In this document: piece after piece, positions 26,452 through 45,018 of the stretch
Layout of the letters: every line of letters starts with the position of its first letter
How positions within the stretch are numbered: position 1 is the stretch's first letter
NCBI GenBank assembly: GCA_947259075.1
Contig: CAMYKQ010000057.1
Location: 135,246-199,245, forward strand
Source: an uncultured Gammaproteobacteria bacterium
Lineage (GTDB): Bacteria; Pseudomonadota; Gammaproteobacteria; DRLM01
Length of the DNA stretch: 64,000 bases
Direction: 5' to 3'
Translations under genes and position numbers: made by a program
The notes under the pieces: generated by a model
Seen by the model: only the letters and a program-made list of their open reading frames with translations
What the model was told of the DNA's origin: nothing
Databases searched by the model: none

Positions 26452-29277
26452 TCACATCACGATCAACTCCGGCTCACCGCAATCGCGCAGAATCGCCGCG
26501 CGCGCCTGCTCGCGCAACTCGACTGCCGCGCGCCAATCGGTCCCGTCCGCGCGCAGCGGCGCGGCAATGCTCACCGTCACCGCCCCGCGCCGCGGGCGCC
26601 ACGAACCGGACGGCAGCACGGCGCGCGTGCCGCGCAAGGCTACCGGCATCACCTCGACGCCGGCGCGCGCCGCCGCGACGAAGGCGCCCATGCGAAACGG
26701 CCGCAGCCCCGGCGCGACGCCGAAGGTGCCTTCGGGGAAAAACAGCAGGCTGTGACCCGCACGCACTTTTTCCTCCAAACGATTGGCGGCGGCGGCGCTT
26801 TGCTGGGTATCGAAACGCTCGACGAATTCACAACCGATACGGCGCAGACACCAGCCCAGCAGCGGCCGCGCCGCCAACTCTTGTTTGGTGACGTAGTGCA
26901 AACCCAGCGGCAGGGCCGCCACCAAAATCAGCGCGTCGATATAACTGGCGTGATTGGCCACCACGATGCGCGTCGCCTCCGCGGCGAAATGCGCCTCGCC
27001 GCTCACGCTGAGACGGATGCCCGCGCAACGCGCGGCGATGCGCGCCGCCTGTTTGCAGCTATTCTGCCGCGCCCGCAGCGTGGGCAATACGGCCACGCCC
27101 GTTATCGCGATCAGCGCCCCGATTAAAAACACCAGCCACACATAGGCCGCGTACACAGCGCTCAGGGTTTGCGCGGCGCCCCGCCGCAGCGCGACACCAG
27201 CAGCGGCGGCGGCCAAAGTCAAACGTGGGCGCCACGGCGCCGCGGCGGCGTCTTCATCGCCGCGTTCGTAACGTTGGCGCGTCGCGTCGCGGCGCACCTT
27301 GCCGCTGGAGGTTTTCAGCACCGTGCGCGGCGGCGCCAGCACCACTTCGTCGGGCGGATTGCCGATGACGGCGATCACCGCCTCGTTGATGGCGGCGCGC
27401 AATTGCGCGCGCTGATCGCCGCGGGTCTCGCGGGTCTCGGCGAGAACGACTAAACGCTCGGTGCCCAAACTCGCGTCGCGGCTGGCGAAGGCCGCCACGC
27501 CGCCTTCGCGCACGCCGGGGAGGGCGCCCACCGCCGCCTCTAATTCGTAGGGATAAATATTGTGGCCGCCGCGGATGATGATGTCTTTGACTCGCCCGGT
27601 GATGAACAACTCGCCGCCGCTCATGTAGCCGCGGTCGCCCGAATCCAGCCACTCGCCGTGTATTAAGCGCGCGGTGGCCTTGGGATTGCGGAAGTAACCC
27701 TGACACGACGACGGTCCGCGAAATTGCACCCGCCCTTCGCGGCGCTCTTCGCAAAGCCGGTCGCGCTCATCGGCGATGCGCAGCGCGTGGCCGGGCAACG
27801 CGCGGCCGCAGGCGACGAAGCAGGCCGTGTCGGCGGCGGGCGTGGTGGTTTGCGCCCGCGGCGCGGCGAGGCCGCGGCCGGTCAAGGCCGCGCGGTCGAC
27901 GCAATCGATGAGCGGCTCGCGGCCTAAGGGGGGGAAAGCCAAACCTACCGAGGATTCCGCCAAACCATAAACCGGCGCCATGGTGTTCGAGCGGAAACCG
28001 TAGGGCGCGAAACGTTCGCTGAAACGGCGCAGCGTGTCCGGGCTCACCTGTTCCGCGCCATTGAAGGCCACTCGCCACGAACTCAAATCCAGCCCGGCCA
28101 GTTCCTCATCGGTGATTTTGCTCGCGCACAATTCATAGGCGAAATTGGGCCCCGCCGACAGCGTGCCGCGGTGACGCTGGATGGCCCGCAACCAGCGCGC
28201 CGGCCGCGCCAAAAAGCTCAGCGGCGGCATCAGCACCAAGGGCAGACCGTGATAGAGGCTGCCGAGCCAGGCGCCGATCAAACCCATATCGTGATAAAGC
28301 GGCAGCCAGCTGACGAAGACGTCGTCGCCCGTCACCTCCACCGCCTGGCCCATGGCGCGCACATTGGCCAGCAGATTGGCGTGGGTGAGCATCACCCCTT
28401 TCGGGTCGCCGGTGCTGCCCGAGGTGTATTGCAGCAGCGCCAAATCCGCGCCCGTAAGCCGCGGCCGTTCGCCGCCGCCCGCCACGGACAGCTCGTCCAC
28501 CGTCAGCACCCCGCGCAAGGTCGGGGCCAAAGCCTGCAGCGCCGCCGACAGCGCGCTGATCTCCGGCAAAGTGATCAGCAAGGGTGCCTGGCAATTATTG
28601 AGAATCACCGCTTGGCGCCGCAGATGGGCCTCCGCGGCGGCGCGCCGCACCGGCGGGTAAAGCGGCGCGGGCACGGCCCCCGCCAGCAGGATGCCGAGAA
28701 AGGCCACGAGAAATTCCCGGCTGGTGGGCAGCATCAGCGCCACCGCCTGTCCCGGCGCCACGCCCCGGGCGCGCAGACCCGCCGCCAGCCGCTGCGCCTC
28801 GCCGTACAGGTCTTGATAGCTCAGGGGAAGCGGCGGCTCATCGCCGGAGTAAAGGTAAACATGCACCCGCTCGGGCTCGGCGGCCACATGCCATTCCAGG
28901 GCCTCAACCAGGGTCGCGGCTTGTTCGGGAGCACCCCGGCCCGGTCCGGTAGCGGGGGTGATAATCGCCTCCTCGTCCCCCCTTTCTTCACTGCGTACGG
29001 CAACCGCGATGGCGGAAAGTAAGGCCCGCGCGGTCTCCGCCTCACCTAAAACCGGCTCCGGCAAGCGCACGCCGAAGGCCCGTTCGACCCGCAGCACCAG
29101 CTCGACGCGCGCCAAGCTATCCAAACCCAAATCCCGGTCAAAAACGCTGTTTAACTGCACGGGATGGCTCGTCTGACTGTGTATCTCTCTGACTAAGTTT
29201 TCAATGATTCCAAGAATACGCGCCTCATTGCGCTTCTCCCCCGCCCCATTTAACCCCGCCTCGCTCATGCGCTCCAT
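26452..29277 (-). CDS. tri-domain ACP - fatty acyl-AMP ligase (FAAL) - lysophospholipid acyltransferase (PlsC-like) fusion protein
   Basis: N-terminal PP-binding motif LGLDSLARVEL. AMP-binding core LQYTSGSTGDPKGVMLTHANL with FAAL-like features. TM helices. C-terminal HX4D acyltransferase motif VANHASYID and EGTF/PEGT motif. Confidence 0.8.
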   Translation of the reverse strand: MERMSEAGLNGAGEKRNEARILGIIENLVREIHSQTSHPVQLNSVFDRDLGLDSLARVELVLRVERAFGVRLPEPVLGEAETARALLSAIAVAVRSEERGDEEAIITPATGPGRGAPEQAATLVEALEWHVAAEPERVHVYLYSGDEPPLPLSYQDLYGEAQRLAAGLRARGVAPGQAVALMLPTSREFLVAFLGILLAGAVPAPLYPPVRRAAAEAHLRRQAVILNNCQAPLLITLPEISALSAALQALAPTLRGVLTVDELSVAGGGERPRLTGADLALLQYTSGSTGDPKGVMLTHANLLANVRAMGQAVEVTGDDVFVSWLPLYHDMGLIGAWLGSLYHGLPLVLMPPLSFLARPARWLRAIQRHRGTLSAGPNFAYELCASKITDEELAGLDLSSWRVAFNGAEQVSPDTLRRFSERFAPYGFRSNTMAPVYGLAESSVGLAFPPLGREPLIDCVDRAALTGRGLAAPRAQTTTPAADTACFVACGRALPGHALRIADERDRLCEERREGRVQFRGPSSCQGYFRNPKATARLIHGEWLDSGDRGYMSGGELFITGRVKDIIIRGGHNIYPYELEAAVGALPGVREGGVAAFASRDASLGTERLVVLAETRETRGDQRAQLRAAINEAVIAVIGNPPDEVVLAPPRTVLKTSSGKVRRDATRQRYERGDEDAAAAPWRPRLTLAAAAAGVALRRGAAQTLSAVYAAYVWLVFLIGALIAITGVAVLPTLRARQNSCKQAARIAARCAGIRLSVSGEAHFAAEATRIVVANHASYIDALILVAALPLGLHYVTKQELAARPLLGWCLRRIGCEFVERFDTQQSAAAANRLEEKVRAGHSLLFFPEGTFGVAPGLRPFRMGAFVAAARAGVEVMPVALRGTRAVLPSGSWRPRRGAVTVSIAAPLRADGTDWRAAVELREQARAAILRDCGEPELIVM

Positions 29278-29543: not shown

Positions 29544-31730
29544 ATGATCAAGACCATAATCAACGGCCTACACACTCTTCCCTCTAATACCGTTGGCCAC
29601 TCTTCACGCGCGCTTAAATTGAGCGCCTTACTGCTCGGTTTGCTTGCCGGAACATCAGCTTACGCAGCAACCTATACCGTCAACAACACCAGCGACGGCG
29701 TCGATGCCGCCCCCGGCGACGGCATCTGCGAAACCGCCACCGGTAACAATGTATGTACCTTGCGAGCGGCTATACAGGAATCCAACTCGGGGATCAGCAA
29801 CTCCATCATACTCCCCGCAGGCGAATATCTACTCACCATCGTCGGCAAAGACGAAAACCTATCCGCCACGGGCGATCTGGATATTAAAAAAGATGTCACC
29901 ATCACCGGCGCGGGTCAAACCACCACCATCATCAATGGCAATGGTGGCGTACTAAATGACCGCGTACTTCAGATTTTGGACGGCGCCACGGTGCGTATCT
30001 CCGGCCTCACGATTAAAAACGGTCACATCAGCAGCAGCGTAGGTGGCGGACTAGACAACGCCAATGGCACCACCACCTTGGACAGCGTAACCGTTAGCGA
30101 CAATATAGCGGACAACCCCGGTGAGATCACAGATGCAGGCGCCGGCGGCGGCATTTACAACAGCGGCAAACTCACCTTGACTAGCGTTACCGTGAGGAAT
30201 AACTCTTCTGACACAAATAACATGTCCACAGGCGGCGGCGGCATCTACAACGAAGCCATTCTGGCAATCGAAAACAGCACGATCATGAACAATAGCACCG
30301 TAGGCGCCAGTGCCGGCGGCGGCGGTTTACAAAACACCAACGAGGATCGTGCAGGCCTCAACAACGCCATAGCCACCATCATCAACACCACTTTTTCCGG
30401 TAATAACGCGATCATCGGCGGTGGTATCCGGAATTTATACGGCCAGGTCAATGTGGACCTGAGCGTATTCAATGGCAACCACGCCACCACATCCGGCGGC
30501 GGCATCGACAACTCGGGTGGCGGCATGACCATCAGCCGCAGCACCGTCCGCGATAACACCTCCAGCTTCACCGGCGCTGGCGTATCCAATTTCGCCGCGA
30601 TGAATCTCTCCCACAGCGCGGTTTACGACAACAACGCAAGCCTGCAGGGTGGCGGCATTTACAACACCGGTGATGGCGCTCTGGCCCTGCTCAACACCAC
30701 GGTCACGCGCAACAACGCAACCGAGGGTGGCGGCGTCTACAATCACCGTGAACTGAACGCCACCAATTCCACCCTCTACAACAACACTTCCAGCAAACCC
30801 GGCAGTGAGATCTTCGCCTGCGGCACCAAGGACGAAGACAAAGGATTGACCTGCTCCAATGACAGCAGCAAAGTGAAAAGCAATATCATCAACTCCATCG
30901 TCGGCAATACTACCGGCGCCGCGGCCTGCGGCGGCGATGTCAGCTTGATCATTTCCAAGGGCTACAACATCGACACCGCCAATACCTGCGGCTTCAACCA
31001 AACCAGTGACAGAAGCAACATCACGGGCTCCGCCGTATTCGCTGGCGGTTTCGTCAATAATGGCGGACCCACTTTCACCTATGCCATTCTTAATGGCAGC
31101 CTTGCCCACAACACCGGGGACAACATCAACTGCCCGGTCATCGATCAGCGTTTCAAACTGCGTGACAGCGCCTGCGACATTGGCGCCTACGAAATCAGCA
31201 ACACCGAGGCCACCTTTCAATTAATCGACTTGAATGTCGCGGTCACATCCAATGTCGCCACCTCCGGCGGCAGCCCGCAAGTCACTTTCACCATCACGGT
31301 CATCAACAATGGTCCCAGCCAAGCCACTGGCGTGGTCCTCACCGGTCAACTGCCGCCCTGGGGCAAGATCACCAGCGCCCGGACCAATATCAATGGCAGC
31401 AACTGCACCTCCACCTCGGAAACCGGCTTCCAGTGTACCTTGGGCACCATCAACGCCTACGCCAGCGCCCAAGTCTACATTGTGGTTGCCCCCACCCAAG
31501 CCGGTGAGTTGATACTGGAAGTGGATGCGGTCGCCGATCAAACCGACATCTTCCGTCCCGATAGCGGCAACACCACGTCCGAAACCGTACCCGTAGTCAC
31601 CGGCACCGCCGTCGGCGGCCCCGACGGCGGTAACAATTTCGCCGGTAAGAGCGGCGGCGGCGCAACGGATTGGGCCATCGCCCTATTGCTCTTGGTCCCC
31701 GCGGCGCGGCGCCTTGCGCGGCGATATTAA
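29544..31730 (+). CDS. secreted CSLREA-N-terminal / PMP-repeat (parallel beta-helix) / DUF11 protein with C-terminal TM + Arg-rich sorting-like tail
   Basis: Signal peptide. N-terminal YTVNNTSDGVDAAPGDGICETATGNNVCTLRAAIQESN (CSLREA-type). Many GGGIYN/GGGIDN repeats. DUF11-like C-terminal module. Ends SGGGATDWAIALLLLVPAARRLARRY. Confidence 0.6.
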   Translation: MIKTIINGLHTLPSNTVGHSSRALKLSALLLGLLAGTSAYAATYTVNNTSDGVDAAPGDGICETATGNNVCTLRAAIQESNSGISNSIILPAGEYLLTIVGKDENLSATGDLDIKKDVTITGAGQTTTIINGNGGVLNDRVLQILDGATVRISGLTIKNGHISSSVGGGLDNANGTTTLDSVTVSDNIADNPGEITDAGAGGGIYNSGKLTLTSVTVRNNSSDTNNMSTGGGGIYNEAILAIENSTIMNNSTVGASAGGGGLQNTNEDRAGLNNAIATIINTTFSGNNAIIGGGIRNLYGQVNVDLSVFNGNHATTSGGGIDNSGGGMTISRSTVRDNTSSFTGAGVSNFAAMNLSHSAVYDNNASLQGGGIYNTGDGALALLNTTVTRNNATEGGGVYNHRELNATNSTLYNNTSSKPGSEIFACGTKDEDKGLTCSNDSSKVKSNIINSIVGNTTGAAACGGDVSLIISKGYNIDTANTCGFNQTSDRSNITGSAVFAGGFVNNGGPTFTYAILNGSLAHNTGDNINCPVIDQRFKLRDSACDIGAYEISNTEATFQLIDLNVAVTSNVATSGGSPQVTFTITVINNGPSQATGVVLTGQLPPWGKITSARTNINGSNCTSTSETGFQCTLGTINAYASAQVYIVVAPTQAGELILEVDAVADQTDIFRPDSGNTTSETVPVVTGTAVGGPDGGNNFAGKSGGGATDWAIALLLLVPAARRLARRY

Positions 31731-31859
31731 TTTATCCCTTGTTTGACTTAGAACGACGCGCCTTTGGGGCGCGTCGCCGTTTTGGGCCTTTTCTTCGCAC
31801 GCGGCCTTGCCTACACTCACCCTCTCGCATACAACCCTAAAACTCACTTCGACAAATCT

Positions 31860-35558: not shown

Positions 35559-36317
35559 TTAATCAAGCTCGGCGCGCCACGCAAGATCACCGAGCCACGT
35601 GCCGTGATGGATAGACGTGACTGAACCGGCAACGGCAAGGGCGCCGGTGTAGGCGTCCTCCGTTTCCAAATCATGCAAACTCCATTGCGCTTGCATCCCG
35701 CATGCCGCGGCGCGCGCCCGCGCGCCGCTGACATCTACTTCCGTCAACCTCCGCGCCAAACCCATCCCCGTGGCTTTCAGCAAGGCCTCTTTTCTTGTCC
35801 AGTAACGCATCAACGCCCGCAAGCGCAGCGGCGGCGGCAGCGTCCGCCACACCGCGCGTTCACGCGGCGTGCAAATTCGCCGCGCCAGCGTCTCCAAATC
35901 CATCGCATCGTTCAACTGTTCGATGTCGGCACCGATATCACCAACCCGCGTCACCGCCAGCAGCATCCGCTCGCCACTGTGCGCCAGATTGAAATATAAG
36001 GGCGAGTCATCCGCGTCCATCGCTAAGGCGGGTTTGCCCCTGGGACCGTAAATGAAACGCAAACTCCCGCCGTGCCGCCCTAAATAACGGCCTAAGATCT
36101 CACGCACGATGCCACGGCCCGCCACGAAGTCCGCGGATTGCTGCGGATGATTGAAGCGCGCGGCACGCAAACGCTCATCCTCGCTGAGCAAGGCGTCAAA
36201 ATAGGCGCCGCGCACCGCCGCGCGGCGCAAATTACTAAACCAGACATGCACCTCACCCTCGGAACAGTGCAAATTCATCCCGGGAAATAAGGCGGCGCCG
36301 CGCGCGTGCTCAAGCAT
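35559..36317 (-). CDS. 4'-phosphopantetheinyl transferase (Sfp/EntD type)
   Basis: FNLAHSG motif and W/KEAxxK motif (WTRKEALLKATG). Start codon uncertain (36317 or 36278). Confidence 0.8.
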   Translation of the reverse strand: MLEHARGAALFPGMNLHCSEGEVHVWFSNLRRAAVRGAYFDALLSEDERLRAARFNHPQQSADFVAGRGIVREILGRYLGRHGGSLRFIYGPRGKPALAMDADDSPLYFNLAHSGERMLLAVTRVGDIGADIEQLNDAMDLETLARRICTPRERAVWRTLPPPLRLRALMRYWTRKEALLKATGMGLARRLTEVDVSGARARAAACGMQAQWSLHDLETEDAYTGALAVAGSVTSIHHGTWLGDLAWRAELD

Positions 36318-36768
36318 TACTCACCGCGCGGTACGCCCCGAGTATGCCGATCAAGCGCGCGATATCACCTTCAACTTGTTTGGCCAACACCTTCTTCAAC
36401 AGGCTGCGGGGAATGATGCCGAAAAAACCACCGGGTTCCGATTCAAAGACCCAATCGATCTGCGTGCTATTACCCAAGGGCGTGAAACGATAACTGCCCT
36501 TGAAAAGCATGGGGCCGCTAAGCGTTTCATAGGCGTAGGTTTGAAATGGCTCGTAGTCGGTCACAATCGAGGTAAAGGGCATATCGCGGCCGAGAAATTG
36601 AAAGCGGATAGCGTATTGCGTGCCCTCACCTATGGGCGCACCCGGTTCATCCAACTCAACTCCCTGACACGAGGCCTGCCAATATTGGTCATTGAGCGGA
36701 TTGCTGATGTAGGAAAAAACAAAATCCACCGGGCTGTTGACGAGATAACTGTATTCCACCTTAATCAT
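36310..36768 (-). CDS. SRPBCC (START/Bet v1-like, polyketide cyclase/dehydrase-type) small protein
   Basis: 152 aa alpha+beta protein of the SRPBCC type. Overlaps the PPTase start by 8 nt (operon). Confidence 0.6.
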   Translation of the reverse strand: MIKVEYSYLVNSPVDFVFSYISNPLNDQYWQASCQGVELDEPGAPIGEGTQYAIRFQFLGRDMPFTSIVTDYEPFQTYAYETLSGPMLFKGSYRFTPLGNSTQIDWVFESEPGGFFGIIPRSLLKKVLAKQVEGDIARLIGILGAYRAVSNA

Positions 36769-36812
36769 GACTGTTCTCCTTTGTGTGTTTTAGTAAGTTA
36801 GTGATGTCTTGT

Positions 36813-39800
36813 TTAACAAGCCATTGCCTGACGCGATGTCATATGCGGGCGCACGCCGTTGAGATAACGTGCCGAGATTTGTATATGCGGTTCGTACATC
36901 ATTGAGTTGTGATCTCCCGGCACTTCGACGACAGAGAAGGGCCGCGACACCACCTTGTCCCAGCCGAGCATCGGGCCGTAATCCACCGGCTCATCCTCGG
37001 CGCGCAGCAAGGTCATGGCGCCGTGATAATCACCCGATTCATAGGTCTGCAGGGCAATGCCATTCGCTAGATAGACTTCGAAATAACGGTACAAGCGCGC
37101 GGTATCGGCATCGTGCGGCAAGACTTCGATCTCGCGGGCGCGTTGCAACACGTACTCGAACATGCCTTCGCCCGCCACCGCGCGTAATTCTTCCGGCGCG
37201 ATGTTGAGTGTCTTACCATAAGGCACGGCAAGATCGCGGGCGAACCAGGACAATAAGGTGGCGTCGTCGCCATCGGAGGGGGCGTTCTCGGGAATGGGCG
37301 CGCGGGTATCGAACATCACCAGCTCCGCCACCTCTTCACCCGCCGCCTCCAATTGCCGCGCCGCCTCGAAGGCGATCAAACCACCGAAGCACCAGCCGCC
37401 CAAGTGATACGGCCCTTGCGGTTGCTGCGCGCGGATGATTTCCAAATAACACCGCGCCAGATCGGGCACGCTTACTTCCGCGAGACTCGCATCTTCGAGA
37501 CCGGGCGATTGCAGCGCGAACACCGGGCGCTGCTGATCAAGATGCCGCGTCAGCGCCAGATAGCAAAACACTGTACCGCCGATGGGATGCATTAAATACA
37601 GCGGCGGCACGGCGCCCGTGCCGCGTAATGGCACCAGCGCCGACGCGGCCTCCGCCGCGCCATTGTGTTCGCGCAGCAAGCGCGCCAAGGCCTCCACCGT
37701 ATTGTGCTGGAACAAGGTGGACACCGGCAATTCCACGCCGAAACGCTCACGGATACCCGCGACCAATTGCACCGCCAGCAAGGAATGGCCGCCCAAATCA
37801 AAAAAGTTTTGCGTGACGCCTACCGGGTGCACGCCCAAGAGTTGCTCCCACAGGGATGCGAGCTGAATTTCACCGCGGTCGCGCGGCGCGACGAAACCGG
37901 CCAATGCCGCATGCGCGCCCTCCGCCGGCGCCGGCAGCGCGCGCCGGTCGATCTTGCCATTGGGCGTGAGGGGAAACGCCGCCAAGGGCACGATGAGGCT
38001 GGGTAACATGTAAGCGGGCAAATGGCCGGCAAGGTGCGCCTTCAATGCGGCGGCGGACACCTCACCATCGACAGCCGTCACATACGCGACCAAGCGTTGA
38101 TCGCCGGGACGGTCTTCACGCACCATCACCACCGCTTGGTGCACGGTCGGGTGACGGCACAACTGCGTTTCGATCTCGCCCAACTCGATACGGAAACCCC
38201 GCAGCTTCACTTGATGATCCAAACGGCCCAGGCATTCCAGCGTGCCGTCGCGCCGCCAGCGCGCGAGATCGCCGGTTTTGTACATGCGCGCCTCGCCCGC
38301 GGCGAAGGGATCGCGGACGAATTTCTCCGCCGTCAATTCCGGGCGGTGTAAATAACCGCGGGCGACGCCGGCGCCGGCGATGCACAACTCCCCCGGCACG
38401 CCGGGCGGCACGGGTTGCAGGGCCTCATCGACGATATAGATTTGGGTATTGGCGATGGGACGGCCGATGGCGATGGCGCCCGCGCCGGACTCGACGCGCA
38501 TCACGCTCGACCATACCGTGGTCTCGGTGGGCCCGTACATATTCCACAGCGCCGCGACGCGCGGCAACAAGGCCTCCGCCACTTGGCGCGGCAGGGCTTC
38601 ACCGCCGCACAAGGCGGTGAGCCGGCTGCATCCATTCCAGCCATCGGACAGCAGCATGCGCCAAGTCGCGGGCGTGGCCTGCATCAGCGTCGCGCCGCTG
38701 CTTTCCAGCAAGGCTTGCAGGCGTTGCGCATCGCTGCTGTCTTCGCGGCTGACGATCAGCGTCATCGCCCCCACGGTGAGCGGCAATAGTAACTCCAGCA
38801 CCGCGATATCAAACGACAGCGTGGTCACCGCCAGCATCACATCGTCGCCGCGCATGCCCGGCTCACGCGCCATGCTCGCGAGAAAATTCACCACCGCGCC
38901 GTGGGGCACGGCGACGCCTTTGGGTTTACCGGTGGAACCCGAGGTGTAAATGACGTAAGCGGATGAGGTGGAACTGACGACGCGATGCGGGTTATGCCCG
39001 GGAAAAGTGGCGATCTCGGGCCAATCGTGATCGAGACTCAGCGCGCGCGCTACCGGCAAGTCCAGCTCGGCCCACACGGCTTCGTGGGTGAGCACCAGAT
39101 CGATCCCGGCGTCCTCCATCATCATGCGCAAACGGTCGCGGGGAAAGGCCGGATCCAAAGGCACATAGGCCGCGCCGGTCTTGAGCACCGCCAGCATCGC
39201 CACCAGCATATCGCCGTTGCGTGCGCTGCATATGCCGATGTGCTGGCCCGCGGCCGCGCCGCTCTCGATGAGATAATGCGCCAGCTGATTGGCGCGCTGA
39301 TTCAACACGCGGTAACTGAATACTTGCTCGCCGCCCATCACGGCGGTCTTGTCCGGTGTCGCCGCCGCCTGGGCCTCCACCAGTTGATGCACGCCGTTCA
39401 CGGCAGGCAAAGGCTGTTCCGTGCGATTCCATTGCAGCAACACCTGCTCGCGCTCCGCCGCCGTCAGCAAGGGTAAACGCGCGATACGCAGCCCCGGATT
39501 CGCCACGATACCTTTCAATAATTCCACGAACTGCCCGGCGAGCGCGCTTATCGTCTCCGGCGCGAACAGCGCCGTGTCGTATTTCCACACGCCAAAGAGT
39601 TCGCCCTCGGCCTCGCCACCCATCTCCAGCGCCACATCCACTTGCCCTTCCTGTTGCGGCAAGGGAAAAGGCGATAAGGTCATGGCACCGAAGGCCACGG
39701 CCTCCGCCGCTTTATCCGACAGGGAAAAGAAGGAGGCCAATTCTTTGAACTGCGGCAGCCGCTCCCAGGAAAATCCGGCTTGAAATAAGGGCGGACGGCT

Positions 39801-40895
39801 GAGGTCGCGCTCCGTTACCAGCTTCTCCACCAAGGAGGCGAAGGGATATTCTTGGTGACGCAGGTCTTCACCGGTGTGGTCGCGTGTCTGCAACAGCAGC
39901 TCGCGAAACGTCATCTCGCCGCTGACCGCGCCGCGCAAAACCACGGTGTTAACAAAATGGCCGACCGTGCGGCGAAAGGCCTTATCGAAGCGGCCCGCGA
40001 CCGGCGCGCCGACTAAAATGTCTTCCTGGCCGGTATAACGATGCAGCAAGACGTAATAGGCCGTAAGCATCAAGGTGAACAAAGTCACGCCTTCCGCACG
40101 CGCCAAGCTATGCAGCGCGGCGGTCAAATCCGTGTCGAAATGGAACCCAAGCGAGGCGCCGCGATAACTCTGCAGCGGCGGGCGCGGATAATCGCTGGCA
40201 AGATTCAGCACGGGCAACTCGCCAGTTAAACGCTCGCGCCAATACGCCGCCATGCGCGCGCGCGCCGCACTCGCCAGCTTCTCCTGCTGATGATGTACGA
40301 AAGCGGGGTAATCGCTGCCCAGCGGCGGCAGATTCACTGCCTTAGCCGCGGTCAAATCCTGGTAGACCTGACGAAATTCATCGAGCAACACCGCCAGCGA
40401 CCAAAAATCCACGGCGATATGATGCGCGCTCCACACCATCAAGGCGTCACCCTTGCCACGGCGGTAGAGACGCACGCGCAGCAAGGGTGCGCGGGCGAGA
40501 TCAAACGGCTTTTGCGCATCGGCGCTGGCACGTTCCCGCAGCTGCGTATCATTCCATCCAGCCGCCACGATGCTCGCGCTGTCGACCTCAACGTGCGGCA
40601 ACACCTCTTGGCGCGGCACGCCGGCGGCATCAACAAGGAAACGCGTGCGCAAAGCGGCATGCCGGTCCAGTAAATAACTCAAGGCCGCATCGAAGGCCGC
40701 CGCATCGATAGCCGAGATCACTCGCGCGGCGAACACCAGATTGTAGGCGCCATTATCCGGCGCCATTTGCTGCACGAACCACAGCCCGCGCTGTACATCC
40801 GCCAACGGAAATGTCTCCGTCGTGGCCCGTGTGTTATCACCCACCACCGGCCGGGCTGCGGTGCTATGTTTATACTGTACAACGTTGCTAGCCAT
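36813..40895 (-). CDS. single-module non-ribosomal peptide synthetase: starter C - A - T(PCP) - TE, with Cys in the TE nucleophile position
   Basis: C domain HHIAVDFWS. A domain YTSGSTGKPKGV...NMYGPTETT...GELCIAGAGVARGY...PNGKIDRRAL. PCP FFDLGGHSLLAV. TE GGWCFGG...MFDTRAP...GDHNSMM. Confidence 0.9.
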   Translation of the reverse strand: MASNVVQYKHSTAARPVVGDNTRATTETFPLADVQRGLWFVQQMAPDNGAYNLVFAARVISAIDAAAFDAALSYLLDRHAALRTRFLVDAAGVPRQEVLPHVEVDSASIVAAGWNDTQLRERASADAQKPFDLARAPLLRVRLYRRGKGDALMVWSAHHIAVDFWSLAVLLDEFRQVYQDLTAAKAVNLPPLGSDYPAFVHHQQEKLASAARARMAAYWRERLTGELPVLNLASDYPRPPLQSYRGASLGFHFDTDLTAALHSLARAEGVTLFTLMLTAYYVLLHRYTGQEDILVGAPVAGRFDKAFRRTVGHFVNTVVLRGAVSGEMTFRELLLQTRDHTGEDLRHQEYPFASLVEKLVTERDLSRPPLFQAGFSWERLPQFKELASFFSLSDKAAEAVAFGAMTLSPFPLPQQEGQVDVALEMGGEAEGELFGVWKYDTALFAPETISALAGQFVELLKGIVANPGLRIARLPLLTAAEREQVLLQWNRTEQPLPAVNGVHQLVEAQAAATPDKTAVMGGEQVFSYRVLNQRANQLAHYLIESGAAAGQHIGICSARNGDMLVAMLAVLKTGAAYVPLDPAFPRDRLRMMMEDAGIDLVLTHEAVWAELDLPVARALSLDHDWPEIATFPGHNPHRVVSSTSSAYVIYTSGSTGKPKGVAVPHGAVVNFLASMAREPGMRGDDVMLAVTTLSFDIAVLELLLPLTVGAMTLIVSREDSSDAQRLQALLESSGATLMQATPATWRMLLSDGWNGCSRLTALCGGEALPRQVAEALLPRVAALWNMYGPTETTVWSSVMRVESGAGAIAIGRPIANTQIYIVDEALQPVPPGVPGELCIAGAGVARGYLHRPELTAEKFVRDPFAAGEARMYKTGDLARWRRDGTLECLGRLDHQVKLRGFRIELGEIETQLCRHPTVHQAVVMVREDRPGDQRLVAYVTAVDGEVSAAALKAHLAGHLPAYMLPSLIVPLAAFPLTPNGKIDRRALPAPAEGAHAALAGFVAPRDRGEIQLASLWEQLLGVHPVGVTQNFFDLGGHSLLAVQLVAGIRERFGVELPVSTLFQHNTVEALARLLREHNGAAEAASALVPLRGTGAVPPLYLMHPIGGTVFCYLALTRHLDQQRPVFALQSPGLEDASLAEVSVPDLARCYLEIIRAQQPQGPYHLGGWCFGGLIAFEAARQLEAAGEEVAELVMFDTRAPIPENAPSDGDDATLLSWFARDLAVPYGKTLNIAPEELRAVAGEGMFEYVLQRAREIEVLPHDADTARLYRYFEVYLANGIALQTYESGDYHGAMTLLRAEDEPVDYGPMLGWDKVVSRPFSVVEVPGDHNSMMYEPHIQISARYLNGVRPHMTSRQAMAC

Positions 40896-40904
40896 GACAT
40901 CCCC

Positions 40905-41333
40905 CTATGGAATCAAATTGCTCAAGAGCTCGTCCATCTGTTGCGGATCGAGTCTGTCCAGATCATCGAGATCGTCCTTATCGATGACACCCTGCTTTTT
41001 GCTCTCCGTCACACGGCCCTCCAGCTTGGCCTTCACCTCGGGCATGGCATCCAACTGCTCTTCGAGAAATCCAGCGATAGCGGCCACCGTGGGGTAATCC
41101 CACAATAGAGTGGAAGGCAGGTCGACATTCAGCCAATCTTCCAAATCACCCGCGAGCGTTACCGCATCAATGGAATCCAAACCATAATGCGGCAAGGGAC
41201 GGGTCACATCTATCTCGGCGGCATCGATTCGCAAGGTCTTCGACAACATTTCCGTAAGCGTGGACTCAAGCTGTTTAGCGAGCGTCTCATTGACTTTAAT
41301 ATCCTGTATCTTTCTAACTGCATTAGCACTCAT
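40905..41333 (-). CDS. stand-alone acyl carrier protein with acidic C-terminal extension
   Basis: PP-binding motif HYGLDSIDAVTLAGDLE. Start either MSANA (41333) or MPKRR (41354). Overlaps the end of the upstream dehydrogenase gene. Confidence 0.8.
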   Translation of the reverse strand: MSANAVRKIQDIKVNETLAKQLESTLTEMLSKTLRIDAAEIDVTRPLPHYGLDSIDAVTLAGDLEDWLNVDLPSTLLWDYPTVAAIAGFLEEQLDAMPEVKAKLEGRVTESKKQGVIDKDDLDDLDRLDPQQMDELLSNLIP

Positions 41334-43233
41334 GGCGATCCTCCTTTTTGGCATTCATGGCCATACTTTCAGTCTTGGCCAAGGCGAGTGGAACAATGGA
41401 AAACAAACGGTATTCATCGAACAAATAAAACAACTGCTGCGCGACGCGCTGGTGATAGGCATCGGGCAAGTCCGGTTTTTGCGTTTGCGGCTGGGCCAGC
41501 AGACGGTCGAGCGCGAGCACCAGCCATTCCCCTCCCGCGAAGAAGGCGTCAAGCGCGTCGCGATTGTGCAACCACATCTGCAAGCAGGCGGACGCGGCAT
41601 GCAGCTGGGCATAACGCGAGGCCAAGCCAAACATCAGCGCTGATTGCGGATGCTGCCCCGCTTCCGCCGCCGCCTCTAAAGCGGAGTCGAAATCACGCAA
41701 GGCCTGCTCCAGCACACCCGCCATCTGTTTCAGGTGACTTAATACCGTCACGCCTAAAGCCTCATCGCCTTGCAATGCACGGAGGGCGTTTATAGCCGCG
41801 ACCAGGCCTTGCATCACGTCGTCGTGCCCCCGGCTAAATAAATCCAGCTTGGTGCCATCGAAGACCGGCAGGGTTTCATCGAGAGAAAACACCGTGGTCA
41901 AGCGGGTACGGCGCGCGCCGTCATCGGTGAGCTGTTCCCGGCGGCGGGTCTTCAGCAAATGCCGCAACTGCAAGCCGAGGGCATGTAGACAGACTTGCGT
42001 GCTGCCGTCGAAGAGGCTGACCACCCCGCCATCGCGCAGCATTTTCTGAAATATGCCTGACATATGACGCTCGCGGATAAAGTGACGCGCGCCCAAGACC
42101 ACCGAAAGTTGCTGAGTAGTACGCTCCAAGGTCACCGGCACGAAATATTTCACCACCACCGACCACACGCTGAATTGTTCGGTGCTGACATGCAGCCCGC
42201 GCGCGGCGGCGGTGGCCATGCAATCGCAAATCAAGATGTCGAGAAAGGCGTCGCTCAATATCCGCCGCGCATTGGGGATGTCGAACACCGTGCCGTTGTA
42301 CAAGCGGCGGTTTACCGCAAATTGCATGGTTGAACGCAGCGCGGTGTCCACCGCCGCTAGCGACAGACCGGCGCACAGGGTGCGCGTCACTTGAAAGGCG
42401 CGCAGTGCCAGCTCCAAACCCTCGCCCACTTCGCCGACGCGGCTGCTCTCCGGCACCAGACAATCATTGAAACGAATACCGCTGATATCGCAGCCGCGCA
42501 GACCGAGGGTCTTCACCCGGGGCAGATTCGAATATTGCGCGGGATCGAGGTCACGCTTCTCCAGCATGAACAGTGACAGGCTGCGGCTGTCGCGGGCATC
42601 ACTGGTCTTGGCCAGCACCGCCACGAGGCCGGAACGGGTGGCGCGGTTGATCGGCCATTTCTCCCCGCTAAGGCGGTAACCGCCCTCGGTCTTCACTGCC
42701 TTCGTATGATTAGCAACGAGGTCGGCGCCGTGCTGCTCTTCCGAATAGGCGAGGGTCGGCGCGTCCTTGGTCCAACGCAGCACTTTCGCGAGATGGCGTT
42801 TTTGCTGTTCATTACCTCCCACCCAAATCAGCGTCGACCAAATCAGCGTGCTATAGGTGATGGCGGTGGTGAGATCGCGCCGCGCCGCCACCCGCGCCAT
42901 GGATTGAAACTCTTCATATGAAGTAAAGCGCCCGCCGTAGGCCGCGGGCACGTAATAATGATTCATGCCGAAACGGTACAATTCGTCCACCGCCGCTTGC
43001 GGAAAGGCCTCCTGCTCATCCCACTGCATCACGTTGTGGAATGAGATGACGTTCGCCGGATTATTGGGGTCACCGAGAAAGCGCTCCAATTCCTCGCTGG
43101 CGCGGTATTGCAGCGGAAGCTCCCAGCTCCGCTCCTGCGCGTCCTGCGCGTCCTGCGCGTCCTGCGCGTCCTGCGCGTCCTGCGCGTCCTGCGCGTCCTG
43201 CGCGACTGTATGTTCAATGCGTGCCGTTTGCAT
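41323..43233 (-). CDS. acyl-CoA/acyl-ACP dehydrogenase family protein (636 aa) with N-terminal (DAQ)7 repeat
   Basis: ACAD fold features (YGGRFTSYEE, LAYSEEQHGADL...EKWPINRAT). N-terminal VAQDAQDAQDAQDAQDAQDAQDAQE. Confidence 0.8.
   Translation of the reverse strand: MQTARIEHTVAQDAQDAQDAQDAQDAQDAQDAQERSWELPLQYRASEELERFLGDPNNPANVISFHNVMQWDEQEAFPQAAVDELYRFGMNHYYVPAAYGGRFTSYEEFQSMARVAARRDLTTAITYSTLIWSTLIWVGGNEQQKRHLAKVLRWTKDAPTLAYSEEQHGADLVANHTKAVKTEGGYRLSGEKWPINRATRSGLVAVLAKTSDARDSRSLSLFMLEKRDLDPAQYSNLPRVKTLGLRGCDISGIRFNDCLVPESSRVGEVGEGLELALRAFQVTRTLCAGLSLAAVDTALRSTMQFAVNRRLYNGTVFDIPNARRILSDAFLDILICDCMATAAARGLHVSTEQFSVWSVVVKYFVPVTLERTTQQLSVVLGARHFIRERHMSGIFQKMLRDGGVVSLFDGSTQVCLHALGLQLRHLLKTRRREQLTDDGARRTRLTTVFSLDETLPVFDGTKLDLFSRGHDDVMQGLVAAINALRALQGDEALGVTVLSHLKQMAGVLEQALRDFDSALEAAAEAGQHPQSALMFGLASRYAQLHAASACLQMWLHNRDALDAFFAGGEWLVLALDRLLAQPQTQKPDLPDAYHQRVAQQLFYLFDEYRLFSIVPLALAKTESMAMNAKKEDRHEC
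43132..43203. repeat. 9-bp perfect tandem repeat (GTCCTGCGC x7 plus one degenerate copy) inside the dehydrogenase coding sequence
   Basis: Seen directly at 43141-43203, with CTCCTGCGC at 43132-43140. Encodes the in-frame (DAQ)n. Confidence 0.95.
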
Positions 43234-43236
43234 GAC

Positions 43237-44985
43237 TCAAGCCTCCATCAACCGCGGCAGAGCGCCGCTTTGCCACATGACCCTGCAGGCATTACGCTGC
43301 ACCTTGCCGCTGGAGGTGATGGGTATCACCCCGGCCTTCACCAGCACGATTTTCCGTAACTGCAATTGATGTTCGGCGGAGATCGCCGCGCGCGCCGCAG
43401 CCGCGGCCGCGGGCAGCTCCGCCTCATCGTGGCGCCGCTCCACTTCGTGGATCAGCACCAACTCTTCATTACCGTCATCGTCAATGGCGAAGGCGGCGCC
43501 GCGTCCCGCGCGCAGCAGCGGATGACTCAGCGCCGCGGTCAGCTCGATGTCTTGCGGATAGTGGTTGTGACCGCGAATGATGATTAACTCTTTAGAGCGG
43601 CCAGTGACGAACAACTCGCCGTCTTTCATGAAACCCAGATCGCCGCTGCGCATGAACGGTCCCGCGCCATTGGCGAGGCGCGCGCCGAAGGTCTCCGCCG
43701 ATTCGGCGGGACGATTCCAATAACCCTGCGCCACACTGGGGCCCGCGATCCACACCTCACCCACCGTGCAATCCCTGGCTTGCAGACGGCTGACGGGGTC
43801 GACGATGACGACTTGCTCGCTGGCGGAGGGCCGGCCCGAACTCACCAAGCGCCGCCCCGTCTCGGCCTGCTGCCCCGGTTGCACCGCATGCACCTCGCCC
43901 CGTTCCAGCGCGAGGCGATCGATGGTGGTCATCACCGGCGCTTGATCGGCCGCGCTGCCAGTGACGAACAAGCTCGCCTCCGCCAAGCCGTAGCAGGGAT
44001 AAAAAGCCTGACGGCGGAAACCGCAAGAAGCGAAGAATTGGGTGAAGCGTTGCAAGGTATCGGCGCGCACCGGCTCGGCGCCGTTGAAGGCCACTTGCCA
44101 CGAACTAAGGTCCAGCGTCTCGCGCTGCGCGGGGGTGATCTTGTTCAAACACAACTCATAGGCGAAGTTCGGCCCGCCGCTGATGGTGGCGCGGTATTTC
44201 GAAATCGCCTGCAACCAGCGTATGGGCCGTTGCAGCGCGGTGACCGGCGACATCAACACCACCGGAAAGCCGCCGAACAGCGGCACCAGCACACCGCCGA
44301 TCAAACCCATATCGTGATACGGTGGCAGCCAGATCACGCCGCGCGATTCGCCGTTGGCGCCGAAGCGGCGGTAGATCAGCGCGAGATTGTGCATGAGATT
44401 ACCGTGAGTCAGCATTACCCCGCGCGGCGCGGCGGTGGAACCGGAGGTGTATTGCAAAAAAGCCAAACTGCCGGACTGACTGCCGGGGTCTTGCCAAGCC
44501 GCGGCGCGCTCCAGCGGGATTTCATCGGTGGCGATCCACGGGGTTTGTTCGCCGCCGGGCAAGCGCCGCATCTCGTCGTCGAGATTAGCGAGCACGGCGC
44601 GGCTGGTGAGCATCACCGCGGCGCGGGCATCCGCGCTGACTTTATGCACGCGCTCCAAGGAGGCGTTGCGGCGCGGCGCGAACACCGGCACCGCGATCAT
44701 GCCCGCGTACAAACAAGCGAAGAAGGCGGCGATGAATTCCATGCCCGGCTGATACAACAGCACCGCGCGTTCGCCGCCGAGATTTAGCGCCTGCAACTCC
44801 GCGGCGATGGCGCGGACCCGTTCATCCAATTCACCGTAGCTGATGTGTAACTCGGCACCATCACCCTCGCGTAAAAAGGTATAGGCGCGCTGCGCGGGCA
44901 TGAGCCGCGCGCGCTCGCGCAACAAGTCCACCAAGGTGGCGGCCTGCGCCGCGGGGTGGCTGATGATGCGATTGAGATTGTCCAT
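43237..44985 (-). CDS. fatty acyl-AMP ligase (FAAL, FadD32/MbtM-like)
   Basis: LQYTSGSTAAPRGVMLTHGNLMHNL. FAAL-type N-terminus. Stop abuts the ACAD start. Confidence 0.85.
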   Translation of the reverse strand: MDNLNRIISHPAAQAATLVDLLRERARLMPAQRAYTFLREGDGAELHISYGELDERVRAIAAELQALNLGGERAVLLYQPGMEFIAAFFACLYAGMIAVPVFAPRRNASLERVHKVSADARAAVMLTSRAVLANLDDEMRRLPGGEQTPWIATDEIPLERAAAWQDPGSQSGSLAFLQYTSGSTAAPRGVMLTHGNLMHNLALIYRRFGANGESRGVIWLPPYHDMGLIGGVLVPLFGGFPVVLMSPVTALQRPIRWLQAISKYRATISGGPNFAYELCLNKITPAQRETLDLSSWQVAFNGAEPVRADTLQRFTQFFASCGFRRQAFYPCYGLAEASLFVTGSAADQAPVMTTIDRLALERGEVHAVQPGQQAETGRRLVSSGRPSASEQVVIVDPVSRLQARDCTVGEVWIAGPSVAQGYWNRPAESAETFGARLANGAGPFMRSGDLGFMKDGELFVTGRSKELIIIRGHNHYPQDIELTAALSHPLLRAGRGAAFAIDDDGNEELVLIHEVERRHDEAELPAAAAAARAAISAEHQLQLRKIVLVKAGVIPITSSGKVQRNACRVMWQSGALPRLMEA

Positions 44986-45018
44986 GAGTGCGTGTCCTTT
45001 CCGTTTGTATGAATGCGA

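What the first reader, a model, noticed from the sequence alone, without database searches (positions are those of the whole stretch)
29544..31730. CSLREA / PMP-repeat / DUF11 surface protein ending in a GlyGly-TM-Arg-rich sorting-like tail
The N-terminus has the CSLREA-type motif (NVCTLRAAIQESN). A long run of GGGIxN parallel-beta-helix repeats and a DUF11-like module follow. The C-terminus SGGGATDWAIALLLLVPAARRLARRY looks like a processed-anchor sorting signal (GlyGly-CTERM/rhombosortase type or an exosortase variant). Together with the bona fide PEP-CTERM protein at 12389-13366, the genome likely encodes exosortase and/or rhombosortase machinery outside this window. This protein would be a candidate substrate.
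Basis: partly seen in the sequence, partly recalled or inferred. Interest (0 to 1): 0.6.

Follow-up and report, generated by a model that had tools for sequence, protein, structure and literature searches.

The report
Beta-helix surface protein, GlyGly-type sorting tail
This is a real, conserved gene for a secreted beta-helix protein whose tail looks like the known GlyGly-CTERM signal, which a rhombosortase protease cuts to fix proteins to the cell surface; it is an ordinary new member of known families, and whether the genome has that protease could not be checked.

Summary
The ORF at 29544-31730 (+, 728 aa) is real and matches the description. It has a Sec signal peptide, a CSLREA-like N-terminus, nine GGG[IVL]xN repeats, a DUF11/CLIPPER Ig-like domain, a disordered linker and a GGG / hydrophobic helix / RRxxRR tail.

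CSLREA scores 18-22 against 25. GlyGly-CTERM scores 14.5-14.9 against 15.5. PEP-CTERM gives no hit.

GlyGly-CTERM is still the best reading of the tail:
- It is the best-scoring sorting model.
- Orthologues aligned through the tail pass it (21.3 and 27.9 bits).
- The tail has no Cys, which excludes MYXO-CTERM and JDVT-CTERM.
- It has no PEP motif.
- It carries the conserved Leu and helix-breaking Pro that V. cholerae rhombosortase requires in VesB.

No rhomboid or exosortase gene lies in the 64-kb window or within 10 kb of related loci. The genome-level test could not be run.

The gene sits directly upstream of nadC-proS in the five orthologue contexts examined, all gammaproteobacterial MAGs. 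NCBI already names an orthologue "choice-of-anchor Q domain-containing protein".

Verdict: a new member of known kinds, of low interest.

The parts
29544..31730 (+). Complete gene, 728 codons plus TAA stop
   Evidence: ORF listing. A 100% identical database protein, P0001, and about 28 orthologues.
29544..29666 (+). Sec-type signal peptide (aa 1-41): long n-region, hydrophobic core LSALLLGLLAGTS, cleavage motif AYA|A, no lipobox Cys
   Evidence: Read from the sequence. The model shows a helix at aa 21-35 with low pLDDT. Cleavage is inferred, not shown.
29673..29786 (+). CSLREA-like N-terminal motif (aa 44-81; ...GDGICETATGNNVCTLRAAIQESN) with two invariant Cys (C62, C71)
   Evidence: TIGR04214 scores 18.3/21.8 bits against a cutoff of 25. 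Invariant columns in 27 orthologues.
29670..31193 (+). Right-handed parallel beta-helix passenger (about aa 43-550), including nine GGG[IVL]xN repeats at aa 167-400 (nt 30042-30743)
   Evidence: Repeat positions. AlphaFold2 strand ladder, pLDDT mostly above 90. Best PDB fold match is the AlgE4 epimerase A-module 2pyg (E 7e-6), followed by phage tailspikes.
31056..31196 (+). Choice-of-anchor Q domain (aa 505-551; ...NCPVIDQRFKLRDSACDIGAYE) with invariant C530/C544
   Evidence: NF041518 scores 52.2 bits against a cutoff of 25. Invariant columns.
31227..31577 (+). DUF11/CLIPPER Ig-like (CnaA-like) domain (aa 562-678) with invariant C621/C631
   Evidence: PF01345 scores 52.4 bits and TIGR01451 scores 26 bits. 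Fold match to the CLIPPER crystal structure 9IFR, TM-score 0.72 on the target.
31578..31649 (+). Disordered linker (aa 679-702) ending in the family-invariant N-F-x-G motif (N698, F699, G701)
   Evidence: pLDDT below 50 for aa 686-713. Mean column identity is 0.48 in the linker and 0.73 in GNNFxGxxGGG.
31650..31727 (+). GlyGly-CTERM-like tail (aa 703-728): SGGG motif, helix ATDWAIALLLLVPAA with invariant L716 and P719, basic cluster RRLARRY
   Evidence: TIGR03501 scores 14.5-14.9 bits against a cutoff of 15.5. 12 of 26 orthologue tails hit the model; of the ten tails scored one by one, P0018 (21.3) and P0026 (27.9) pass the cutoff. Column conservation. Model helix at aa 710-727.
31755..31790 (+). 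Terminator-like hairpin (9-bp GC-rich stem at 31755-31775) followed by a T-rich tract. The next gene, nadC, probably starts at ATG 31861
   Evidence: Sequence. RNA fold -23.4 kcal/mol, z = -2.3. The simple terminator scan did not call it. The nadC model aligns from residue 53 of the long ORF.

Best explanation
The gene encodes a cell-envelope protein of an uncultured gammaproteobacterium. Three parts of the account are shown by sequence, models and predicted structure. First, there is a Sec-type signal peptide. Second, the passenger consists of a right-handed beta-helix (CSLREA-like start, nine GGGxxN rungs, choice-of-anchor Q cap) followed by one DUF11/CLIPPER Ig-like domain, with ten Cys that are invariant in all 27 aligned orthologues. 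Third, a disordered linker leads to a short tail with a Gly-rich motif, a Leu-rich helix containing a Pro, and an Arg cluster. The rest is inferred by analogy with V. cholerae VesB. After Sec export the tail would hold the protein in the inner membrane. A rhombosortase (RssP/RrtA-type rhomboid protease) encoded elsewhere in the genome would cut just after the GG(G) motif inside the membrane. The new C-terminus would receive a glycerophosphoethanolamine-containing lipid moiety. A type II secretion system would then move the protein to the cell surface, where the Ig-like domain acts as a stalk and the beta-helix as the exposed adhesin-like or glycan-binding module. The passenger's biochemical activity is unknown.
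For: Architecture:
- Family models, repeats and the AlphaFold2 model with mean pLDDT 81.9.
- Fold matches to beta-helix proteins and to the CLIPPER domain 9IFR.

Tail classification:
- GlyGly_CTERM is the only sorting model that hits the window tail, at 14.5-14.9 bits against 15.5.
- It is the model hit by the most orthologue tails: 12 of 26, best E 2.5e-6. MYXO-CTERM is hit by 9 (best 0.0033) and JDVT-CTERM by 4 (best 0.01).
- Orthologues P0018 and P0026 pass (21.3 and 27.9 bits) and align through the tail.
- More distant homologues P0061 (18.5) and P0075 (16.0) also pass.
- The tail meets the published curation criteria: a Gly motif without Cys, a TM stretch and basic residues (PMC3237569).

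Features needed for rhombosortase cleavage of VesB (PMC11389362):
- VesB needs cleavage after GG, a helix-breaking Pro at +12 and a Leu at +7.
- The window tail has W at +4 (as in VesB), the invariant L716 at +10 and P719 at +13 (81% conserved).
- Many orthologues read K-G-G-S, which fits the SGGS site. At the first position of that site, K gave 123% activity in VesB.
- The disordered linker before the tail matches the GlyGly-CTERM description (PMC13393428).

Selection on the tail:
- The motif columns are more conserved (0.73) than the preceding linker (0.48) across orthologues down to about 43% identity.

Choice of anchor:
- Homologues of the passenger carry other C-terminal signals, such as the YLP-box (NF050076/NF053834) in Chloroflexota. 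The C-terminus therefore behaves as an exchangeable sorting module.
Against: - The window tail scores below the curated cutoff (14.5-14.9 against 15.5), and 14 of 26 orthologue tails give no GlyGly_CTERM hit at all.
- No rhombosortase or any rhomboid-family gene was found in the 64-kb window or within 10 kb of 85 related loci. The positive controls GlpG and two other rhomboids were detected by the same HMM.
- Presence of rhombosortase and a T2SS in this genome is untested.
- Only one protein in the window has such a tail, so the many-to-one pattern was not seen.
- In VesB, Gly or Ala at the residue after the GG cleavage site gave under 1% activity, and the window has G/A there. A different enzyme specificity would therefore have to be assumed.
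- The L and P spacings differ from VesB by 1-3 residues.
Confidence: 0.6

Rival explanations
1. The tail is simply an uncleaved C-terminal membrane anchor. After Sec export the protein stays tethered to the inner membrane and faces the periplasm, with no dedicated sorting protease.
For: The sorting-model score is below cutoff. No rhomboid or exosortase was found nearby. No second protein with this tail was found in the window.
Against: A plain anchor would not need an invariant G706, a near-invariant G705, an invariant L716 and a conserved helix-breaking P719 across orthologues of about 43% identity. The hydrophobic stretch is short, about 15-18 residues including the Gly motif and D709. Orthologue tails pass the GlyGly-CTERM model. 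A 500-residue beta-helix on an Ig-like stalk is the architecture of surface proteins (10.1101/2025.04.25.650565).
Confidence: 0.2
2. The tail is recognised by a different, possibly undescribed, sorting enzyme (an exosortase-family variant or another intramembrane protease). The family-invariant N-F-x-G motif just upstream of GGG would be the true signature.
For: F699 and G701 are invariant and N698 is 96% conserved in a segment predicted to be disordered. This segment lies outside the 22-residue TIGR03501 model. The genome has at least one bona fide PEP-CTERM protein, so an exosortase is probably present. The window tail is sub-threshold for GlyGly-CTERM.
Against: A profile of the extended tail, searched against 1.84 billion representative proteins, found only orthologues, their fragments, and one unrelated ordinary GG tail. 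NFxG therefore behaves as part of this protein family and not as a shared signal on unrelated passengers. There is no Pro-Glu-Pro-like motif and no hit to any exosortase-type signal model. No candidate enzyme is adjacent in any of five orthologue contexts.
Confidence: 0.12
3. The tail is a MYXO-CTERM or JDVT-CTERM type signal processed by a CPBP/Rce1-like glutamic intramembrane protease (myxosortase, MrtJ).
For: Weak sub-threshold hits of some orthologue tails to MYXO-CTERM (9 of 26, best E 0.0033) and JDVT-CTERM (4 of 26, best E 0.01).
Against: Both signals have an invariant Cys in the signature motif, and JDVT-CTERM also has a near-invariant DP motif (10.1101/2023.06.07.544157). The window tail and the orthologue motifs have no Cys. 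All these scores are below cutoff. JDVT-type enzymes are usually adjacent to their single target, and none is adjacent here.
Confidence: 0.03

Closest known systems
GlyGly-CTERM / rhombosortase system (TIGR03501 / TIGR03902), model substrate VesB of Vibrio cholerae
   Same: C-terminal tripartite tail (Gly-rich motif without Cys, Leu-rich helix with a helix-breaking Pro, Arg cluster) after a disordered linker. Trp lies four residues after the GG. Found in a proteobacterium. Orthologue tails pass the model.
   Different: The window tail scores 0.6-1 bit below cutoff. The motif is GGG-A, not SGG-S. The Leu and Pro spacings are shifted by 1-3 residues. There is an extra invariant N-F-x-G upstream. 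The passenger is a beta-helix/Ig protein and not a protease or nuclease. The cognate rhombosortase was not observed.
Choice-of-anchor Q domain-containing proteins (NCBIfam NF041518), including CSLREA domain proteins (TIGR04214)
   Same: Strong choice-of-anchor Q hit. CSLREA-like Cys-x-L-R-A-A start. Beta-helix repeats. Homologues of the passenger carry alternative C-terminal anchors (YLP-box, GlyGly-type, none). NCBI names orthologue P0004 'choice-of-anchor Q domain-containing protein'.
   Different: The CSLREA model itself is below cutoff. This clade is a single-copy gene at a fixed position (upstream of nadC-proS) in gammaproteobacterial MAGs, whereas most of the other homologues retrieved come from Chloroflexota and Planctomycetota MAGs.
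DUF11 / CLIPPER domain stalks of fibrillar adhesins (PF01345; PDB 9IFR)
   Same: Significant Pfam hit and a fold match (TM-score 0.72 on the target). It sits between the passenger and the sorting signal, as stalk domains do.
   Different: There is only one copy, not a tandem array. Whether the Lys-Asn isopeptide bond is present was not established, because the sequence search against the PDB did not align it.
Right-handed beta-helix proteins: chlamydial polymorphic membrane protein repeats (PF02415), AlgE4 epimerase A-module (2pyg), phage tailspikes
   Same: GGG[IVL]xN rungs of about 25-34 residues and a predicted beta-helix. The best PDB fold hit is AlgE4.
   Different: No Pfam PF02415 or PF13229 hit on this protein at E<=10. 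Identity to AlgE4 is low (15%) and no catalytic residues were identified. It is not an autotransporter.

Membership tests
GlyGly-CTERM sorting domain (TIGR03501) | At the extreme C-terminus: tripartite Gly-containing motif, hydrophobic TM stretch, basic residues | tested here: met
   SGGG / ATDWAIALLLLVPAA / RRLARRY at aa 703-728. Model helix at aa 710-727.
GlyGly-CTERM sorting domain (TIGR03501) | No Cys in the signature motif (this separates it from MYXO-CTERM) | tested here: met
   No Cys in aa 679-728. The criterion is from PMC3237569.
GlyGly-CTERM sorting domain (TIGR03501) | HMM score at or above the curated cutoff (15.5 bits) | tested here: not met
   14.5, 14.7 and 14.9 bits on the isolated tail. 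No hit is reported when the whole protein is scanned.
GlyGly-CTERM sorting domain (TIGR03501) | Curators' promotion rule: homology that continues through the tail of a trusted member | tested here: met
   P0018 (21.3 bits) and P0026 (27.9 bits) pass and align with the window tail without disruption.
GlyGly-CTERM sorting domain (TIGR03501) | Helix-breaking residue and conserved Leu in the TM, as RssP requires in VesB | tested here: met
   P719 is 81% conserved and L716 is invariant. The requirement is from PMC11389362. The spacing differs by 1-3 residues.
GlyGly-CTERM sorting domain (TIGR03501) | Rhombosortase (TIGR03902) encoded in the same genome | not testable with these tools
   Absent from the 64-kb window and from the 10-kb flanks of 85 loci. 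The single genome-contig scan did not return the window's own genome.
GlyGly-CTERM sorting domain (TIGR03501) | Tail shared by otherwise unrelated proteins of the genome (many-to-one) | tested here: inconclusive
   No second such tail among window ORFs. A profile search of the extended tail found only orthologues plus one unrelated GG tail, P0255. The generic part of the tail is too short for a library-wide search.
PEP-CTERM / exosortase signals (TIGR02595 and variants) | Pro-Glu-Pro-type signature before the TM helix, and an HMM hit | tested here: not met
   No PEP-like motif. No hit at E<=10 on the protein or on the tail.
MYXO-CTERM / JDVT-CTERM (CPBP-processed signals) | Invariant Cys in the signature motif (plus a DP motif for JDVT) | tested here: not met
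   No Cys in the motif. Only sub-threshold hits in some orthologues. Definitions are from 10.1101/2023.06.07.544157.
CSLREA N-terminal domain (TIGR04214) | HMM score at or above 25 bits | tested here: not met
   18.3 bits in the whole protein and 21.8 bits on the N-terminus alone. The motif reads CTLRAA. Many homologues are named CSLREA domain proteins by their sources.
Choice-of-anchor Q domain (NF041518) | HMM score at or above 25 bits | tested here: met
   52.2 bits at aa 505-551, model positions 9-57 of 58.
DUF11 / CLIPPER (PF01345, TIGR01451) | HMM score above the gathering cutoff, and a CnaA-like Ig fold | tested here: met
   52.4 bits (cutoff 24.6) and 26 bits (cutoff 24). Foldseek match to 9IFR at E 6.6e-5, TM-score 0.72 on the target.
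DUF11 / CLIPPER (PF01345, TIGR01451) | Intramolecular Lys-Asn isopeptide bond with a catalytic Asp (present in only some members) | not tested
   No sequence alignment to 9IFR was obtained.
Chlamydial PMP repeat (PF02415) / Beta_helix (PF13229) | Pfam hit above the gathering score | tested here: not met
   No hit at E<=10. Some homologues carry precomputed PF02415/PF13229 hits. The beta-helix fold rests on the model alone.

The most novel reading that the evidence does not exclude
This single-copy clade, fixed upstream of nadC-proS, might carry a lineage-specific variant of the GlyGly signal: an invariant N-F-x-G in the disordered linker, then GGG, D-W, and Pro at +13. A divergent rhombosortase subfamily or a non-rhomboid enzyme would read it, with NFxG serving as a second processing or release site. 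This would be analogous to GlpG cutting the VesB linker.
Probability: 0.12. Interest if true: 0.45.

Novelty: new member of a known kind. Interest (0 to 1): 0.2.

Why it matters
The practical value is in annotation. The case shows how a sub-threshold tail can be assigned to GlyGly-CTERM by following orthologues through the tail. It also places a choice-of-anchor Q beta-helix protein among the likely rhombosortase/T2SS surface cargo of uncultured marine and hydrothermal-vent gammaproteobacteria. If the lineage does have rhombosortase, the gene is a conserved, probably important surface protein of that clade. It opens no new question about sorting mechanisms.

Tried and rejected
1. Exact-protein look-ups for the target, its identical database copy and the window's ProS found nothing on record, so the source assembly could not be identified.

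It returned relatives of at most 44% identity (MAGs titled Chromatiaceae or Gammaproteobacteria) but not the window's own genome.

3. Rhombosortase hunt.
- NCBIfam scans of the 40 largest non-overlapping ORFs in the window found nothing.
- phmmer searches with E. coli GlpG and with V. cholerae RssP found nothing. The RssP sequence was recovered from the supplement of PMC11389362.
- An HMM built from 116 Vibrio rhombosortases was run against all ORFs of at least 60 aa in the window and the loci. It found only the control rhomboids.

4. A tblastn search of plasmid records for a rhombosortase seed gave only generic rhomboids. The Acinetobacter candidate scored 37 bits against a cutoff of 84.

5. 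The RssP database search returned only Vibrio-type rhombosortases. No link through contig length to the orthologue-bearing contigs was possible.

6. A word-indexed search with the tail profile returned only two orthologue fragments (after two rejected calls, 65 and 66). The exhaustive profile search returned only orthologues, fragments and one other GG tail.

7. A sequence search of the DUF11 region against the PDB gave nothing useful for the isopeptide question.

8. The YLP C-terminal motif seen in Chloroflexota homologues looked new but is already modelled by NCBIfam.

9. The consensus promoter and terminator scan gave nothing on the + strand. The hairpin after the stop codon was found by eye and then folded.
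Full report
**Observation**

It is a real gene. The public protein collection holds a 100% identical protein (P0001), seen on one NCBI contig of 246,371 bp. About 28 full-length orthologues share 37-72% identity, and hundreds of more distant homologues exist.

A hairpin lies just after the stop codon: a 9-bp GC-rich stem at 31755-31775 followed by a T-rich tract, -23.4 kcal/mol, z = -2.3. The next gene, nadC, most likely starts at ATG 31861, because the nadC model aligns from residue 53 of the long ORF.

**Anatomy**

- The N-terminus has a basic n-region, a hydrophobic core (LSALLLGLLAGTS) and an AYA|A site with no lipobox Cys. This is a Sec signal peptide, and its cleavage is inferred.
- CSLREA_Nterm (TIGR04214) aligns to aa 44-81 but scores 18.3 bits in the whole protein and 21.8 bits on the N-terminus alone, against a cutoff of 25.
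- Nine GGG[IVL]xN repeats lie at aa 167-400, spaced 25-34 residues apart.
- Choice-of-anchor Q (NF041518) scores 52.2 bits against a cutoff of 25, at aa 505-551.
- DUF11 passes in both libraries: PF01345 at 52.4 bits and TIGR01451 at 26 bits. Pfam now calls this family CLIPPER, a CnaA-like stalk domain of fibrillar adhesins (10.1101/2025.04.25.650565).
- Pfam PF02415 and PF13229 do not hit the protein at E<=10.

An AlphaFold2 model built on 27 orthologues has mean pLDDT 81.9 and pTM 0.78. It shows:
- a helix at aa 21-35, the signal peptide;
- a continuous beta-helix over about aa 43-550;
- an Ig-like sandwich at aa 563-682;
- a disordered stretch at aa 686-713;
- a terminal helix at aa 710-727.

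Foldseek against the PDB matches the helix to the AlgE4 epimerase A-module and to phage tailspikes. It matches the Ig-like domain to the CLIPPER structure 9IFR (TM-score 0.72 on the target), to integrin Ig-like domains and to Cna adhesins. All ten Cys are invariant in the 27 orthologues, as expected for an exported, disulfide-bonded protein.

**The tail**

Scanned alone, the last 29-42 residues hit only GlyGly_CTERM (TIGR03501), at 14.5-14.9 bits against a cutoff of 15.5. PEP-CTERM gives nothing.

All complete orthologues keep the tail. Across the alignment, G706, L716 and R722 are invariant. G705 (93%), D709 (89%), P719 (81%) and R727 (93%) are highly conserved. The preceding linker is much less conserved, at 0.48 mean column identity.

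Of 26 orthologue tails, 12 hit GlyGly_CTERM (best E 2.5e-6), 9 hit MYXO-CTERM weakly and 4 hit JDVT-CTERM weakly. P0018 (21.3 bits) and P0026 (27.9 bits) pass the cutoff. So do the more distant homologues P0061 (18.5) and P0075 (16.0).

The authors of GlyGly-CTERM say the HMM misses true members. They promoted low scorers when homology runs through the tail of a trusted member, and they required a Gly motif without Cys, a TM stretch and a basic residue (PMC3237569). The window tail meets all of these conditions.

[quoted passage not shown] The window tail has none.

Experiments on VesB show that rhombosortase cuts after GG inside the membrane and needs a helix-breaking Pro (+12) and one Leu (+7) (PMC11389362). 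The window tail has Trp at +4 as in VesB, the invariant Leu at +10 and Pro at +13. Many orthologues read K-G-G-S, which fits the SGGS site. A caveat is that Gly or Ala after the GG site gave under 1% activity in VesB. The window's GGG-A would therefore need an enzyme with a somewhat different specificity.

**Choice of anchor**

Among the 120 best homologues, about 25 end in [YF]LPxxx[KR]. These are mostly from Chloroflexota. NCBIfam already models this motif as a 'YLP-box putative sorting motif' (NF050076, NF053834). Other homologues have GG-TM-RRR tails or no tail. The C-terminus is therefore an exchangeable sorting module on a shared passenger. That is the idea behind the 'choice-of-anchor' name, and NCBI gives that name to orthologue P0004.

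**Context**

In all five orthologue contexts read, the gene lies directly upstream of nadC and proS. Upstream lies either a cupin gene or a divergent Aas-like gene encoding PP-binding, fatty acyl-AMP ligase and acyltransferase domains. The related records are MAGs titled Chromatiaceae or Gammaproteobacteria, some from hydrothermal-vent or marine samples.

No rhomboid, exosortase, CPBP protease or T2SS gene is in the window. The rhomboid search was extended with three probes:
- phmmer with E. coli GlpG;
- phmmer with V. cholerae RssP, whose sequence was recovered from a paper supplement;
- an HMM built from 116 rhombosortases.

Run against every ORF of the window and 85 loci, these found only the control rhomboids. 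This does not count against the hypothesis. Rhombosortase is adjacent to its target mainly in genomes that have a single target (PMC3237569). It also gives no positive support.

**What could not be done**

The source genome could not be identified or searched. Rhombosortases of this lineage could not be picked out of the database.

A profile of the extended tail, searched against 1.84 billion representatives, found only orthologues, their fragments and one unrelated GG tail. The invariant N-F-x-G motif upstream of GGG is therefore specific to this family. It is not a shared signal, and its role is unexplained.

**Verdict**

The tail is most likely a GlyGly-CTERM-class signal, with confidence about 0.6. 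The exosortase alternative has no support. The decisive genome-level test remains open. The finding is a new member of known kinds, and its interest is low.

Noticed in passing
window 35562-48128: A lipopeptide-type biosynthetic cluster. Its genes are a HetI-like phosphopantetheinyl transferase (35562-36317), a 152-aa ORF (36313-36768) whose counterpart in L001 is a polyketide-cyclase-like protein, a one-module NRPS C-A-T-TE of 1360 aa (36816-40895), an acyl-CoA dehydrogenase-like protein (41326-43233), a fatty acyl-AMP ligase (43240-44985), an MMPL/RND transporter (45022-47343) and an 84-aa ORF that reads like an MbtH-like protein (47874-48128). Genes matching the first four of these lie in the same order next to orthologue P0007 in L001, which ends inside the dehydrogenase-like gene.
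   Followed up: partly
window 13851-17252 (-) and 12392-13366 (-): A 1134-aa protein with only a weak PorU/C25-peptidase-like hit (44 bits against a cutoff of 420). It lies next to the PEP-CTERM protein, which passes TIGR02595 (19.8 bits, cutoff 16) but carries about 15 extra residues after its RYRR cluster.
   Followed up: no
window 26455-29277 (-): A 941-aa fusion of carrier domain, fatty acyl-AMP ligase and acyltransferase (Aas-like), transcribed divergently from the target. It is conserved in that position in three of the five orthologue contexts read (the two loci carrying P0029 hold the same genes) and absent in the other two. Any link to lipid attachment of the target is pure speculation.
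   Followed up: partly
window about 48000-53500: A stretch of lower G+C (0.53-0.55 against about 0.60 elsewhere). Its ORFs have no NCBIfam match. No tRNA gene or Rfam family is found anywhere in the window.
   Followed up: no
Homologues P0034-P0120 (mostly Chloroflexota): About 25 homologues of the passenger end in a very short [YF]LPxxx[KR] C-terminus with no TM helix. NCBIfam already models this as the 'YLP-box putative sorting motif' (NF050076, NF053834).
   Followed up: yes
window 31635-31646 (aa 698-701): An N-F-x-G motif is invariant or nearly so in all orthologues. It lies in a segment predicted to be disordered, five to seven residues before the GGG motif and outside the GlyGly-CTERM model. 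It is confined to this protein family and its role is unexplained.
   Followed up: partly
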